Notes: a model not told the origin generated them from the letters alone. Numbered from the stretch's first letter, positions 15,082 to 19,430 are shown. The stretch: DNA of 64,000 nucleotides from Escherichia coli (GCF_044324875.1 NZ_CP172185.1), one strand, 5' to 3'. A program made the numbers and translations.

Positions 15082-15378
15082 GGAAGGTGCGAATAAGCAG
15101 GTCATTTCTTCCCAAGCTGACTCGCTGATTAAAATTTCGCGGATCTGGGCCGATTTTTTTCCCGCAAACACATCGAATCAGCCTATTTAGGCTATTTTTT
15201 CCACCATTTCTGGCGTTATTTCCGGTTTTTACTGAGATCTCTCCCACTGACGTATCATTTGGTCCACCCGAAACAGGTTGGCTAGGGTGAATAACATCGC
15301 CAGTTGGTTATCGTTTTTCAGCAGCCCCTTGTATCTGGCTTTCACGAAGCCGAACTGCCGCTTGATGATGCGAAACGG
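15082..15378 (-). mobile_element. IS5-like element remnant (terminal ~300 bp with transposase C-terminus), truncated by IS1
   Basis: Terminus GGAAGGTGCGAATAAG preceded by TTAG (IS5 YTAR target); minus strand 15229..15378 encodes ...[30 protein letters not shown]..., the C-terminal end of an IS5-type transposase. Confidence 0.75.
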
Positions 15379-15454
15379 GGTAATGCTGCCAACTTACTGA
15401 TTTAGTGTATGATGGTGATTTTAAGTAAGCGACTCGTCAGAACCGTATTGATAT

Positions 15455-17026
15455 TTACTGAGAGCTCAGATCAACTTTCCAGGGCAACAGATCGCGTACC
15501 CGGTTTGCCGGCCAGTCCTGGATATGTTCAATGACGTAACGCAGCCACTTTTCTGGCTCCACATTGTTCAGACGGCATGTGCCGATCAGCGAGTACAACA
15601 CCGCCGCATGTTCACCACCGCTGTCGGAACCCGCGAACATCCAGTTTTTCCGGCCTACGGCCACTCCCCGTAAGGCGTTCTCTGCGATGTTGTTGTCGAT
15701 TTCCACCCAGCCATTACTGCAGTACACGTTCAGTGCATCCCACTGTTTCAGCAGGTATGCGAACGCTTTTGCCGTATCTGAGTGACGCGACAGTGTTTTC
15801 ATCTGTTGCTGTATCCAGTCATACAGTGACTGCATCAGTGGCGCGGCTCTGGCTTTTCTTGCCGCCAGACGCTGTTCTGCTGAACAGCCCCGGACCTCTG
15901 CCTCGATGGCATACAGTTCACCGATACGCTGCAGGGCTTCCGTGGTGATGTAGGTGGGCGCTCTTGCATGCACATCGTGGATTTTTCTCCGGGCATGAGC
16001 CATACACGCGGCTTCCGTTATTCTGCCGGATTCGTATAACGCCCGGTAACCACCGTAAGCATCGGCCTGAAGCACACCGCTGTAACCGGCCAGGTGATTT
16101 TGTGGATGGATACCTTTCCGGTCCGGACTGTACGCGAACCAGACCGCCGGGGGCATCTGTGAACCGGCGTTACGGTCATCACGGACGTAGACCCACAGCC
16201 GGGCTGTCCGGGTTTTACCGCTGCCCGGCTCCTGGACCGGGACGGGGATATCATCAGCATGGACTTTACCGGGCATCAGCACATACTGGCGCAGGACGTC
16301 ATACAGCGGCTCCAGCAGTTCAGCAACAGCACCTGTCCAGCGCCCCAGTGTGGCACGGCTCAGCTCCACTCCCTGACGACGGTATATTTCTGACTGGCGG
16401 TATAACGGCAGATGGTCTGCATATTTCCCGGTGACAACATGGGCCAGAAGCCCCGCTCCGGCATAACTGCGTGCAATGGGTTTTGAAGGTACTGGTGCCT
16501 GCACGATATGGTCGCACCGGCAACAGGCCTGTTTCGGACGTTGTGTTTCGATAACCTTAAAGGCGCTGCTGATAAGCTCCAGTTGCTCTGACACATCACA
16601 TCCCAGAGAACTGAGTTCACCACCACAGGCAGGACAGCATTCCTCTTCCGGCCGGATAACCCGGGTTTCACGGGGAAGTGAGGCCGGTAACGGTTTACGG
16701 GCTGAAGACTGGCGCAGGGCGGATGGCAGTACCGGGTCATATTGCTCACCCAGCGTTTCCGCCATTTCTTCCTGAAGTGCGCTGATTCGCTCCTGTGCTT
16801 CCTGTATCTGCCGTTCGGTTTTTGCACGAAGTTTTTCTGAGCTTTTACCGAACTGCATACGTTGCAGTTTCGCAACCAGCGCCTTCAGCCGGTTGATTTC
16901 GGAAGCATAAGCCGCCACCCGCTGTGAGAGCAGGCGGTTGTATTCAGCCATCTGGCGGATGGTGTCCTGTTGCGTCTGCAACAGTGCCCGCAGGCGGGCG
17001 TTCTCATGAGCAAGTGAGGTGTCCAT
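15455..17026 (-). CDS. tnpC: IS66-family transposase TnpC
   Basis: 523 aa with N-terminal coiled-coil/leucine-zipper region, CxxC zinc motif and DDE core typical of IS66 transposases. Confidence 0.85.
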
Positions 17027-17045
17027 ATCCTCACTTTACAACGGG

Positions 17046-17393
17046 TTATATGCGGATTCCAGCGCGTTCCGTTCGTTTCGGGTGCTTCCAGTTGATACCT
17101 TCAAGAAGCATGGATAACTGAGCCGGAGTAAGGTGCACCTTGCCGTCACGGGTGACTGGCCAGACGAAGCGGCCCCGCTCCAGGCGTTTGGTGAAGAGGC
17201 ACAGTCCGTCACTGTCAGCCCACAACACTTTTATCTGGTCACCCCGGCGTCCGCGGAAGATGAACAGGTGTCCGGAGAACGGGTCATCCTTCAGGACGTT
17301 CTGAACTTTTGATGCCAGGCCGTTAAAGCCATTTCGCATATCGGTGATACCTGCAACCAGCCAGATACGCGAACCTGCAGGGAGAGATATCAT
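17046..17393 (-). CDS. tnpB: IS66-family Orf2 (TnpB)
   Basis: 115 aa; MISLPAGSRIWLVAGITDMRNGFNGL... is the conserved IS66 Orf2. Confidence 0.85.
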   Translation of the reverse strand: MISLPAGSRIWLVAGITDMRNGFNGLASKVQNVLKDDPFSGHLFIFRGRRGDQIKVLWADSDGLCLFTKRLERGRFVWPVTRDGKVHLTPAQLSMLLEGINWKHPKRTERAGIRI

Positions 17394-18070
17394 CAGTGGC
17401 TGCTCCCTTTTATTTCGCGGATAAGTGTCTGTAATAACGCCGGCGTCAGTTTACCTTTAAGCCTGAGAGTTCCGGCCGGCAGAACCAGCTCACAACACAG
17501 ACTGTCGGACGGTGTATTTATCTGCTCTGGTTCCTGTGCGGGGGCCGGGATTTTATTATCCGGCTCCGGCGTTAACGTCACGGGAAGCAGTGCCGGCATA
17601 TTTTTTCCGGAAGGCAGCAGGCCACCTTTCCGGTATTGATGGCGCCAGTTGAAGAGCAGGTTATCGTTGATTCCGTTTTCCCGGGCGATCTGCGCCACAC
17701 AGGCTCCGGGCTGCAGTGACTGCTCCACTAAGGCGATTTTAAACTCATAAGGGAAGTTGGGCCGCCGGGGACGTTTTTTTACCACGGGGGCTTCGGATAT
17801 AACGGTGCTTTCAGGACGTACGACTGGTACCGTGGAAAATTGTCCGTAAAGGCAGGCATCAAGTTCCTGCTCCGACATGCCTGCGGGCAAAGGCCACGAA
17901 AGGCCAGCTCTCCGAAAGCGCACGAACATACTACAAACTGTTGATTTTGGTACACCCAGGCGACGCCCGGCCACAACCCGGGGTAAATGTTCTTCAAAGT
18001 GAAGACGTAAAGCTTCAGTGATCCAGGTCCGGTGTTTCATACGATAGTGTCCATTAAAAATGATGGACAT
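17393..18070 (-). CDS. tnpA: IS66-family accessory protein (TnpA); true start uncertain, probably internal
   Basis: ORF immediately upstream of and overlapping tnpB (ATGA overlap) in the canonical IS66 arrangement. Confidence 0.6.
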   Translation of the reverse strand: MSIIFNGHYRMKHRTWITEALRLHFEEHLPRVVAGRRLGVPKSTVCSMFVRFRRAGLSWPLPAGMSEQELDACLYGQFSTVPVVRPESTVISEAPVVKKRPRRPNFPYEFKIALVEQSLQPGACVAQIARENGINDNLLFNWRHQYRKGGLLPSGKNMPALLPVTLTPEPDNKIPAPAQEPEQINTPSDSLCCELVLPAGTLRLKGKLTPALLQTLIREIKGSSH

Positions 18071-18140
18071 TATTTTTGTAGAGCCGGAGGAAACAGACCA
18101 GACGGTTTAAATGAGCCGGTTACGATTTTAAGGTGCTTGC

Positions 18141-18416
18141 GTGGCTTCCATTTCCATCAGATGTCCTTCCTGCTCCGCTACTGAAGGCGTGGTGCGTAAC
18201 GGCAAAAGCACTGCCGGACATCAGCGCTATCTCTGCTCTCATTGCCGTAAAACATGGCAACTACAGTTCACTTACACCGCCTCTCAGCCCGGTACGCACC
18301 AGAAAATCATTGATATGGCCATGAATAGCGTCGGATGTCGCGCCAGTGCACGCATTATGGGCGTTGGCCTCAACACGGTTTTACGTCACTTAAAAAACTC
18401 AGGCCGCAGTCGGTAA
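18141..18416 (+). CDS. insA: IS1 InsA
   Basis: 91 aa, [43 protein letters not shown]... matches IS1 InsA. Confidence 0.9.
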
Positions 18417-18790
18417 CCTCGCGCATACAACCGGGCAGTGATGTGATTGTCTGCGCTGAAATGGACGAACAGTGGGGCTACGTCGGTGCTAAATCACGTC
18501 AGCGCTGGCTGTTTTACGCGTATGACAGGATACGGAGGACGGTTGTGGCGCACGTCTTCGGTGAACGCACTCTGGCCACACTGGAGCGTCTTCTGAGCCT
18601 GCTGTCGGCCTTTGAGGTCGTGGTATGGATGACGGATGGCTGGCCGCTGTATGAATCACGCCTGAAGGGAAAGCTGCACGTTATCAGCAAGCGTTACACT
18701 CAGCGCATTGAGCGACATAATCTGAATCTGAGATCTGGCAAGGCTGGGACGGAAGTCACTGTCGTTCTCAAAATCGGTGGAGCTGCATGA
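18335..18790 (+). CDS. insB: IS1 insB' frame (expressed as InsAB' transposase by -1 frameshift)
   Basis: Overlaps insA in another frame; translation matches IS1 InsB. Confidence 0.85.
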
Positions 18791-19430
18791 CAAGGTCATC
18801 GGGCATTATCTGAACATAAAACACTATCAGTAAGTTGGAGTCATTACCAACGGTAAATATCCATAAGTGTGGGCTTGCGGAATAAATAGTTTGGTTAAAG
18901 ATAAGGTGGTTTAATACTGCTGAGTATTTTATAGGAGATATGATGTTGTTTTATAAACAAACTAAAAAACATGAAGTTTAATTGATAGGGGACAATGAAA
19001 TCTCCTTTTTAAACTCAATTGCTATGTTGGGTTTATGGGGTTGCTATAAACGGTTTTGAATAAACGCTTTACTATTCTCATGAAAACAGTGTTATGTTGT
19101 TATTTTAACAACCCCGCATTGTTTTTTGATGGGATGGGTATTAAGACTTTAGAGAAACTTTATAAATAAATATATGTATTCAATAGTGGCGAAAATAATA
19201 ACCCATCTTATTATTACATTGTGGAAGTGCTCTTTTTTATTATCGCTCATGTTTTACCTTTCTGTTAAAACATATTCTTTCGGATATGTAAAATGGTAAG
19301 AGATAGTTAATCTACGTATGCATGGGGGCGTTTCATTGCATGGCGTTATAATCTGGCTTGTATATAAAGGCACTATAAGTTTTACTCTTACAGTGCCTTT
19401 ATTTGGCCATGATTTACCCTCTACAATAAA

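What the first reader, a model, noticed from the sequence alone, without database searches (positions are those of the whole stretch)
15082..18848. Three-layer nested insertion: IS5-like remnant cut by IS1, which is itself split by an IS66-family element with an 8-bp target duplication
The IS5-like terminus (GGAAGGTGCGAATAAG, preceded by TTAG) and a transposase C-terminus end abruptly at 15378 where the IS1 left inverted repeat begins. Forty-six bp into IS1 a 2.7-kb IS66-family element is inserted, flanked by GATTTTAA at 15417..15424 and 18124..18131. IS1 then resumes and ends at 18848. This gives a clear relative chronology (IS5, then IS1, then IS66) and marks a recombination-prone junction between the fos-like locus and the GH31 module.
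Basis: seen in the sequence. Interest (0 to 1): 0.35.

Follow-up and report, generated by a model that had tools for sequence, protein, structure and literature searches.

The report
ISCro1 inserted into a dead IS1
A known 2.7-kb mobile element (ISCro1) has jumped into an already broken IS1 that sits beside a stump of IS5 inside a known E. coli sugar-utilisation island; this is ordinary mobile-DNA clutter, well documented by comparison with related strains.

Summary
Window 15082-15378 is the first 297 bp of IS5. Window 15379-15424 plus 18132-18848 is one collinear IS1. Window 15425-18123 is an intact 2,699-bp ISCro1 (IS66 family) flanked by the 8-bp duplication GATTTTAA.

The window is the selC island AGI-3 of E. 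coli, which carries the fos locus. Removing ISCro1 and one GATTTTAA copy gives a sequence 100% identical over 1,134 bp to strain BEN2908. BEN2908 therefore holds the empty site.

None of 5,426 complete E. coli genomes carries this particular insertion.

The interpretation needs one correction. IS1 probably did not insert into IS5. The same IS1 copy, with the same right flank, occurs in 202 genomes. Its left flank varies: IS5 cut at nt 1184, IS5 cut at nt 297, or the fos flank cut 58 bp beyond IS5. Other islands have BREX genes there, cut at two points. No target duplication flanks IS1. This is the signature of IS1-promoted adjacent deletions, so "IS5 then IS1" is not established. "ISCro1 last" is established.

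Side observation: ISCro1 (three independent events) and ISEc10 (one event) all landed at IS1 nt 34-48.

The finding is ordinary and of low interest.

The parts
15078..15081 (.). TTAG immediately outside the IS5 terminus. It fits the IS5 YTAR target tetranucleotide. The second copy cannot be checked because the other IS5 end is missing.
   Evidence: Sequence read. The IS5 target preference is from my general knowledge of IS5.
15082..15378 (-). IS5 remnant: nt 1-297 of a 1,195-bp K-12-type IS5. It holds the terminal inverted repeat GGAAGGTGCGAATAAG and the last ~50 codons of the transposase, which is encoded on the minus strand.
   Evidence: 99.7% identical to IS5 copies of E. coli K-12 and others. 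99.66% identical to nt 1-298 of the nearly complete IS5 of SW070917. Annotated in S51 and BEN2908 as an IS5/IS1182 transposase missing its N-terminus.
15379..15424 (+). IS1 nt 1-46: the left inverted repeat and the inner edge up to the ISCro1 insertion point.
   Evidence: Identical to BEN2908 IS1 nt 1-46.
15417..15424 (.). Target-site duplication copy 1, GATTTTAA (IS1 nt 39-46).
   Evidence: Present once in BEN2908 and S51.
15425..18123 (-). ISCro1 (IS66 family), 2,699 bp and complete. Its imperfect terminal inverted repeats start GTAAGCG and GTAACCG.
   Evidence: 0 mismatches in 2,699 bp against the copy on plasmid pVTB933v-1, and 1 mismatch against four other copies. 2,699 bp and an 8-bp duplication match the published ISCro1 description (PMC12115866).
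15455..17026 (-). tnpC, the DDE transposase of ISCro1, 523 aa and intact.
   Evidence: Pfam DDE_Tnp_IS66 E 2.5e-103, plus zf-IS66, LZ_Tnp_IS66 and IS66_C. Identical to the protein annotated WP_000381395.1, 'ISCro1 family transposase'.
17046..17393 (-). tnpB, the IS66 accessory protein, 115 aa and intact.
   Evidence: Pfam TnpB_IS66 E 4.7e-40. Identical to WP_000624622.1.
17393..18070 (-). tnpA, the IS66 accessory helix-turn-helix protein, 225 aa and intact.
   Evidence: Pfam HTH_Tnp_1 E 8.6e-15. Identical to the EC4 plasmid copy.
18124..18131 (.). Target-site duplication copy 2, GATTTTAA.
18132..18848 (+). IS1 nt 47-768 (717 bp here). It holds insA (18141-18416, intact), the insB frame (18335-18790, broken by a 5-bp deletion between 18732 and 18733) and the right inverted repeat ending at 18848.
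18849..18857 (.). AACGGTAAA, the first 9 bp to the right of IS1. It is not repeated to the left of IS1, so IS1 has no target duplication. This is the constant boundary of the ykgR/GH31 module.
   Evidence: The same boundary nucleotide is seen in IS1-free genomes.

Best explanation
The window is an AGI-3-type genomic island at tRNA-Sec (selC) of E. coli. I propose four steps.

Step 1 (inferred). An IS1 of an IS1F-like isoform inserted at the outer boundary of the ykgR/GH31 sugar module. Separately, an IS5 inserted at a TTAG just downstream of the fos operon.

Step 2 (inferred from comparative anatomy). The left end of that IS1 attacked neighbouring DNA by intramolecular transposition. Each such event deletes the DNA between the IS1 and its target but keeps the IS1 and its right flank. 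One event fused the IS1 left end to IS5 nt 1184. A further one fused it to IS5 nt 297, which is the state seen here. The IS1 itself later, or in between, acquired a 5-bp deletion in insB and became defective.

Step 3 (shown). An intact ISCro1 transposed into IS1 after nt 46 and duplicated GATTTTAA. This copy is identical or nearly identical to copies circulating on E. coli plasmids and chromosomes. It is not derived from the degenerate ISCro1 that BEN2908 carries elsewhere in the island.

Step 4 (inferred). The insertion lies between the IS1 promoter and left inverted repeat on one side and insA on the other, inside an IS1 that was already defective. It disrupts no host gene and lies downstream of both neighbouring operons. 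It is therefore most likely selectively neutral.
For: Island identity:
- tRNA-Sec lies at 27796-27890 with an adjacent integrase.
- The fos genes, a PfkB kinase, an OmpG-type porin and a GH31 hydrolase flank the site.
- The island is collinear with BEN2908, with 5 differences in 12.3 kb on the left and none from 18124 to 27000.

ISCro1 insertion:
- The empty site in BEN2908 is 100% identical over 1,134 bp once ISCro1 and one duplication copy are removed.
- The duplicated octamer has the sequence of the local IS1 isoform, not of IS1A.
- All other ISCro1 copies examined are 2,699 bp with 8-bp duplications.
- The ORFs are intact and identical to annotated ISCro1 proteins.
- No complete genome shares the insertion: 0 of 5,426 genomes cover at least 80% of window 14500-19500.

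IS1-driven deletions:
- The IS1-right-flank junction is found in 202 genomes.
- The left flank is IS5 nt 1184 in SW070917 and NCTC9064.
- It is IS5 nt 297 in the window, BEN2908, S51 and PSJ-29.
- It is window-equivalent position 15023 in O78 strain 3.
- In BREX-bearing islands it is a pseudogene next to brxA in EC958, and truncated pglX in AMSCJX03.
- The right flank also varies, with two endpoints at or near the integrase gene in NCTC9064 and PSJ-29.
- IS1 has no target duplication in any context examined.
Against: - The deletion mechanism is inferred from end-states only. Homologous recombination between two IS1 copies would leave the same scars.
- The 5-bp deletion allele and the IS5 endpoint are phylogenetically incongruent. 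The observed states are (1184, deleted), (297, deleted) and (297, intact). At least one recombination, gene conversion or repeated event is needed.
- A defective IS1 would need transposase supplied in trans for the second deletion.
- The primordial IS1 insertion, with its target duplication and the IS1-free left flank, was not found in any complete genome.
- No reads are available, so misassembly of this repeat-rich stretch cannot be formally excluded.
Confidence: 0.85

Rival explanations
1. IS1 inserted directly into a complete IS5 at nt 297/298, and the distal 898 bp of IS5 were lost afterwards.
For: IS5 ends flush with the IS1 left inverted repeat. IS5 must have been whole at some time.
Against: - There is no IS5 sequence to the right of IS1 or anywhere else in the window.
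- There is no 9-bp duplication.
- The same IS1 copy with the identical right flank abuts IS5 at nt 1184 in two genomes.
- It abuts non-IS5 DNA in others.
- The IS1-GH31 junction exists in 202 genomes, whereas the fos-proximal flank that abuts IS5 (window 12500-15082) matches only 39.
Confidence: 0.07
2. The variable flanks of IS1 arose by homologous recombination between this IS1 and other IS1 copies, giving deletions or module exchange between islands. They did not arise by IS1 transposase-mediated adjacent deletion.
For: - IS1 is abundant, with a median of about 10 places per genome matching IS1-containing queries.
- The island is identical in a divergent chromosomal background, which shows that it has been exchanged horizontally.
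- The incongruence between the IS1 allele and the IS5 endpoint needs some recombination anyway.
Against: Each of at least five left endpoints and two extra right endpoints would need a separate earlier IS1 insertion in direct orientation at exactly that point. One-step intramolecular transposition needs none. The nested, collinear endpoints (IS5 nt 1184, then nt 297, then 58 bp beyond IS5) are the classic pattern of IS1 adjacent deletions (my general knowledge; not tested experimentally here).
Confidence: 0.2
3. The IS1::ISCro1 composite was not made in place. It was imported as a unit, either by transposition using the IS1 ends or by recombination with an IS1::ISCro1 copy from a plasmid.
For: IS1 interrupted by ISCro1 at the same or nearly the same position exists on plasmid pEC4-2 and in the TW10598 chromosome.
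Against: - Those host IS1 copies are different isoforms, 90.8% and 95.1% identical to this one.
- Here both IS1 segments and both outer flanks are identical to BEN2908, including the A allele and the 5-bp deletion.
- The duplicated octamer GATTTTAA is the local isoform's own sequence. The other two events duplicate GTTTTTGA and TTTTGAGG.
Confidence: 0.02
4. Local hop. The ISCro1 that BEN2908 carries 12.3 kb away in the same island (window-equivalent 3109-3116) moved into IS1.
For: The window lacks ISCro1 at that site and has it in IS1. BEN2908 shows the reverse.
Against: - The BEN2908 copy is degenerate: 2,676 bp, 98.6% identical to this one with 20 gap openings, and its genes are annotated as frameshifted.
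- The window copy is intact and 0-1 mismatches from copies elsewhere.
- The surrounding island differs by only about 0.04%.
- Precise loss of the donor copy would also be required.
Confidence: 0.03

Closest known systems
ISCro1 (IS66 family; first named in Citrobacter rodentium; widespread in E. coli chromosomes and plasmids)
   Same: It is 2,699 bp with an 8-bp target duplication and the tnpA-tnpB-tnpC order. Its proteins are identical to those RefSeq annotates as ISCro1 family. It has 0-1 nucleotide differences from other copies.
   Different: Nothing in the element itself. Only the insertion site, inside the AGI-3 IS1, is not seen in 5,426 complete genomes.
AGI-3, the selC-associated island of avian pathogenic E. 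coli BEN2908 that carries the fos locus (Chouikha et al. 2006, Schouler et al. 2009; cited in PMC3325963 and PMC12928451)
   Same: The insertion site (tRNA-Sec) and the integrase match. So do the GH31/MFS/LacI module, the IS1, the IS5 stump and the six-gene fos operon with fosR. There are 5 differences in 12.3 kb and none in about 9 kb.
   Different: The window has ISCro1 in IS1 and lacks BEN2908's degenerate ISCro1 at 3109-3116. The chromosomal backbone to the right of selC differs by about 1-3%.
IS1-promoted adjacent deletions (classical IS1 behaviour, first described in the gal region of E. coli; my general knowledge)
   Same: The IS is retained, one flank is fixed, the other flank has nested variable endpoints, and there is no target duplication.
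   Different: Here the process is inferred from natural variants across strains. It was not observed experimentally.
IS-in-IS nests at boundaries of genomic-island modules, for example the IS integration hotspot in the afa regulatory region of ST131 islands (PMC8764528)
   Same: The same pair of elements, ISCro1 and ISEc10, pile up at one short site.
   Different: Here the shared target is the inner edge of the IS1 left inverted repeat, not a promoter region. No expression effect is expected.

Membership tests
IS66 family / ISCro1 | Three genes in the order tnpA-tnpB-tnpC, with a DDE transposase TnpC carrying the IS66 zinc-finger and leucine-zipper regions | tested here: met
   Pfam PF03050, PF13005, PF13007 and PF13817 on TnpC, PF05717 on TnpB and PF01527 on TnpA. 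The ORFs lie at 17393-18070, 17046-17393 and 15455-17026 on the minus strand.
IS66 family / ISCro1 | Imperfect terminal inverted repeats beginning 5'-GTAA | tested here: met
   GTAAGCGACTC... and GTAACCGGCTC... match at 18 of the first 26 positions.
IS66 family / ISCro1 | 8-bp target-site duplication | tested here: met
   GATTTTAA lies on both sides, and once only in the empty site.
IS66 family / ISCro1 | Near-identity to the ISCro1 reference entry in ISfinder | not testable with these tools
   ISfinder is not available here. As a proxy, the proteins are identical to RefSeq 'ISCro1 family' proteins and the length equals the published 2,699 bp.
IS1 | An element of about 768 bp with GGTAATG... 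terminal inverted repeats, insA and insB', and an A6C frameshift site | tested here: met
   The reconstructed element is 763 bp and 90.8-95.1% identical to other isoforms over full length. The inverted repeats are shown. insA hits PF03811 and PF12759, and insB hits PF03400. The AAAAAAC site is present at 18394-18400. insB is broken by a 5-bp deletion, so this is a defective member.
IS1 | A target duplication of 9 bp (occasionally 8-11 bp) flanking a simple insertion | tested here: not met
   The left flank is GCGAAACGG and the right flank is AACGGTAAA. None is present in the other contexts either. This argues against a simple insertion at this junction, not against the element being IS1.
IS5 | Terminal inverted repeat GGAAGGTGCGAATAAG and a YTAR target | tested here: met
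   The inverted repeat is at 15082-15097 and TTAG is at 15078-15081. Only one end is present, so the 4-bp duplication itself cannot be confirmed.
IS5 | A full-length 1,195-bp element with a DDE transposase | tested here: not met
   Only nt 1-297 remain, at 99.7% identity. It is a remnant. Nearly complete versions (1,184 bp, with an intact transposase gene) occupy the same position in SW070917 and NCTC9064.
IS1-mediated adjacent deletion | The IS and one flank are conserved, the other flank shows nested endpoints in collinear DNA, and there is no target duplication | tested here: met
   The endpoints are IS5 nt 1184, IS5 nt 297 and 58 bp beyond IS5. The BREX context gives two further endpoints.
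IS1-mediated adjacent deletion | Dependence on IS1 transposase and independence from RecA | not testable with these tools
   This needs genetics.

The most novel reading that the evidence does not exclude
The inner edge of the IS1 left inverted repeat (nt ~34-48) may be a genuine insertion hot spot for unrelated insertion sequences.

ISCro1 landed there three times independently, in three different IS1 isoforms and in the same orientation. The duplications cover nt 39-46 twice and nt 41-48 once. ISEc10 (IS21 family) landed at about nt 34-39.

The same two elements also share a single site in the afa regulatory region, which the paper describes as IHF- and H-NS-regulated.

A shared structural cue could attract both elements. 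One candidate is the DNA bend made by IHF or InsA bound to the IS1 end. Insertion there would silence IS1 by separating its promoter from insA.
Probability: 0.3. Interest if true: 0.35.

Novelty: already known. Interest (0 to 1): 0.13.

Why it matters
It matters little beyond bookkeeping.

- It gives a clean natural example, with the empty site in hand, of ISCro1 transposition.
- It shows a resident IS1 progressively deleting into its neighbours at a module boundary of the AGI-3/selC island family.
- The ISCro1 position could serve as a lineage marker for the source strain.
- It adds an intact, probably active ISCro1 copy and 2.7 kb of homology that could drive further rearrangements next to the fos locus.

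The possible IS1-end hot spot would be of modest interest to transposon biologists if confirmed.

Tried and rejected
1. Exact-pattern scans for IS1(nt 24-39)-N4-14-ISCro1 end found nothing in one genome per species (genome contigs) or in JGI metagenome contigs. I gained no extra independent events.

2. A junction search in PLSDB plasmids returned only pEC4-2 (same site) and SHP24 (adjacent, not nested).

3. A search for ISEc10-in-IS1 found only 510016 and NCCP 13717, which is one event.

4. I searched with a synthetic 'primordial' junction: the IS1-free left flank, then AACGGTAAA, then the IS1 left end. No genome matched, so the original IS1 insertion with its duplication could not be recovered.

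5. The original AGI-3 paper (PMC1347334) is not held, so I could not check whether the IS5/IS1 junction was already described there.

6. Literature searches for a known ISCro1 or IS66 preference for IS1 found none.

7. The coincidental 75%-coverage hits (BE311 and others) are separate IS copies in the O-antigen region, not this structure.

8. I considered and rejected the local-hop and composite-import hypotheses (see rivals).

9. The closest chromosomal backbone is only 99.3% identical, so the insertion could not be dated within a lineage.
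Full report
**1. What is in the sequence**

Reading 14700-19200 confirms every coordinate of the finding.

- The IS5 terminal repeat GGAAGGTGCGAATAAG begins at 15082, after TTAG.
- IS5 homology stops at 15378, and GGTAATGCTGCCAACTTACTG, the IS1 left end, begins at 15379.
- After 46 bp of IS1 a 2,699-bp element starts (GTAAGCGACTC...). It ends at 18123 (...GAGCCGGTTAC).
- GATTTTAA lies on both sides, at 15417-15424 and 18124-18131.
- IS1 resumes at 18132 and ends at 18848 (...GGAGTCATTACC).

The inserted element has three intact minus-strand ORFs: TnpA (225 aa), TnpB (115 aa) and TnpC (523 aa). 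TnpC and TnpB give strong IS66-family Pfam hits, and TnpA matches the generic transposase HTH family PF01527. IS1 shows an intact insA and an insB frame that matches only the first 98 of 131 profile positions.

**2. Identity of the three elements**

- The inserted element is ISCro1. Its proteins are identical to RefSeq proteins annotated as ISCro1 family. Its DNA has 0 mismatches in 2,699 bp against a copy on plasmid pVTB933v-1, and 1 mismatch against copies in four other replicons. Its length and 8-bp duplication match a published description (PMC12115866).
- The IS5 piece is 99.7% identical to nt 1-297 of the IS5 found in E. coli K-12 and many other strains. It is 85-87% identical to other IS5-group isoforms.
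- The IS1 is an IS1F-like isoform. It is 90.8% identical to an IS1A copy and 95.1% to another isoform, and both segments are collinear with each over the whole length.

**3. Context**

The window holds tRNA-Sec at 27796-27890 with a tyrosine recombinase next to it. To the left of the IS cluster lies the fos operon: MFS transporter, two GH32 enzymes, two OmpG-like porins and a PfkB kinase. To the right lie ykgR and a GH31/MFS/LacI module. This is the AGI-3 island of avian pathogenic E. coli BEN2908 (PMC3325963).

Aligned with BEN2908, the island shows 5 differences in 12.3 kb to the left of the IS1 and none between 18124 and 27000. The chromosome to the right of selC differs by 1-3%. The best backbone match among complete genomes is only 99.3%. 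The same island therefore sits in a poorly represented chromosomal lineage.

**4. The ISCro1 layer is proven**

- BEN2908 and S51 carry fos, the IS5 stump, an uninterrupted IS1, ykgR and GH31 in that order.
- Deleting 15425-18131 from the window gives a sequence identical to BEN2908 over 1,134 bp. The match includes a single GATTTTAA, an A at IS1 nt 242 and a 5-bp deletion in insB.
- At least 26 fos-bearing complete genomes have the uninterrupted IS5-stump/IS1 junction.
- None of 5,426 complete genomes has ISCro1 at this site.

Two alternatives to in-place transposition are excluded. Import of a ready-made IS1::ISCro1 unit is excluded because the duplicated octamer and both IS1 parts are those of the local isoform. 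Derivation from the ISCro1 that BEN2908 carries at window-equivalent 3109-3116 is unlikely, because that copy is degenerate (2,676 bp, 98.6% identity, many indels) while the window copy is intact.

**5. The IS5/IS1 layer is a truncation, not an insertion**

- No IS5 sequence lies to the right of IS1 or elsewhere in the window.
- IS1 has no target duplication.
- The junction of this IS1 with its right flank (AACGGTAAAT...) is present in 202 genomes.

The left flank of this IS1 varies between strains:

| Left flank of IS1 | Strains |
|---|---|
| IS5 nt 1-1184, transposase gene intact | SW070917, NCTC9064 |
| IS5 nt 1-297 | window, BEN2908, S51, PSJ-29 and others |
| fos flank cut at window-equivalent 15023; the IS5 stump and 58 more bp are gone | O78 strain 3 |
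| pseudogene next to brxA (BREX context) | EC958 |
| truncated pglX, further into the BREX operon | AMSCJX03 |

The right flank also varies. IS1 abuts the integrase region at two different points in NCTC9064 and PSJ-29, with the GH31 module lost.

About 128 genomes have the GH31 module without IS1. Their homology to the window ends at exactly the same nucleotide, next to an ssb-like gene.

Nested endpoints radiating from a retained IS with no duplication are the classical signature of IS1-promoted adjacent deletions. That is my reading, from general knowledge of IS1. IS1-IS1 homologous recombination is the main rival, and it needs many more events.

It follows that IS1 was probably already resident at the GH31 boundary when its left end cut into IS5. 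The order in which IS1 and IS5 arrived cannot be decided. That ISCro1 arrived last is certain.

**6. Loose end**

The 5-bp insB deletion occurs with both IS5 endpoints: nt 1184 in SW070917 and NCTC9064, and nt 297 in the window and BEN2908. Other genomes with the nt 297 endpoint have an intact-length IS1. One recombination, gene conversion or repeated event is required, and I cannot say which.

**7. Consequences**

ISCro1 lies between the IS1 left repeat and insA, in an IS1 that was already defective. It is 280 bp or more downstream of fosK and downstream of ykgR/GH31, which are transcribed towards it. No host gene is disrupted, so a neutral insertion is the most likely reading (inference).

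The junction is indeed a nest. Strain 510016 (with NCCP 13717) has another ISCro1 inside the IS5 stump, in the opposite orientation with duplication CGATGTTA. It also has an ISEc10 inside the same IS1.

**8. Side observation**

ISCro1 interrupts IS1 elsewhere too.

| Host replicon | Duplication | IS1 position |
|---|---|---|
| plasmid pEC4-2 | GTTTTTGA | nt 39-46 |
| TW10598 chromosome | TTTTGAGG | nt 41-48 |
| NMBU_W05E18 chromosome | TGCTAAAT | insertion after nt 409 |
| plasmid p53_A | ACTGGGAC | about nt 671 |
| plasmid pVTB933v-1 | TGACAAAG | insertion after nt 715 |

With the window, three of six independent ISCro1-in-IS1 events fall within 3 bp, in three different IS1 isoforms. ISEc10 in 510016 sits at about nt 34-39.

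If insertions were uniform along 768 bp, three of six within 3 bp would be expected with a probability of the order of 1e-3. This is a rough, post hoc estimate of my own. All six events share one orientation, but the search could only join same-strand pieces, so orientation bias is untested.

A paper on ST131 reports ISCro1 and ISEc10 at one shared site in the afa regulatory region, which it describes as IHF- and H-NS-regulated (PMC8764528). IHF is known to bind the IS1 ends (my general knowledge). A structural hot spot is therefore possible but unproven. I found no description of one in the held literature.

**9. Verdict**

The structure is a new instance of fully known phenomena in a known island. 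Interest is low.

Noticed in passing
window 15412-15426 (IS1 nt 34-48); L001:3041-3048, L002:3039-3046, L006:11620-11626: Four independent insertions cluster at the inner edge of the IS1 left repeat. ISCro1 landed there three times, in three IS1 isoforms, and ISEc10 once. This may be an insertion hot spot shared by two IS families. The same two elements also share a site in the afa regulatory region (PMC8764528).
   Followed up: partly
window 3109-3116 (GGACGAGG); L012:35275-37951: BEN2908 has a degenerate 2,676-bp ISCro1 here with pseudogenised tnpA, tnpB and tnpC. The window has the empty site. The two otherwise near-identical islands therefore carry ISCro1 at different places.
   Followed up: partly
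window 18732/18733 and 18327 (IS1 nt 647/653 and nt 242): A 5-bp deletion in insB is shared with BEN2908, SW070917 and NCTC9064 but absent from S51, PSJ-29, EC958, AMSCJX03 and O78-3. Its distribution conflicts with that of the IS5 endpoint (nt 1184 versus nt 297). This implies recombination or gene conversion within IS1, or a repeated event.
   Followed up: partly
window 18849 onward; L013:4900-5040: In about 128 genomes without this IS1 (KFu019, ATCC 8739 and others), homology to the GH31 module begins at exactly the nucleotide where IS1 ends here, next to an ssb-like gene. No genome keeps that ssb flank beside the IS1, so the primordial insertion state was not found.
   Followed up: partly
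L015:4731-4790 and L016:3849-3900 (NCTC9064, PSJ-29): In about ten fos-bearing genomes the whole ykgR/GH31/MFS/LacI module is missing and the IS1 right end abuts the selC integrase region. At least two endpoints are seen, one of which shortens the integrase gene slightly (1,179 bp versus 1,185 bp).
   Followed up: partly
window 27900-41090 versus 1-27000: The island is virtually identical to BEN2908, but the chromosome to the right of selC differs by 1-3%. The best match among 5,426 complete genomes is 99.3%. The island has been transferred horizontally into a lineage not represented among complete genomes.
   Followed up: partly
window 1-5900: The leftmost part of the window holds further mobile-element debris, collinear with BEN2908. 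It includes an IS100 (IS21-like) istA/istB region, a frameshifted MFS transporter gene, a partial aldo/keto reductase gene and an ISEc27 (IS3 family) copy at about 3370-4600.
   Followed up: no
L010:1-4232 and L011:1-4232 (EC958, AMSCJX03): In selC islands without fos, the DNA to the left of the same IS1 is a BREX type 1 defence locus. It is cut at different depths: next to brxA in EC958 and inside pglX in AMSCJX03. IS1-end deletions have probably inactivated a phage-defence system in some strains.
   Followed up: no
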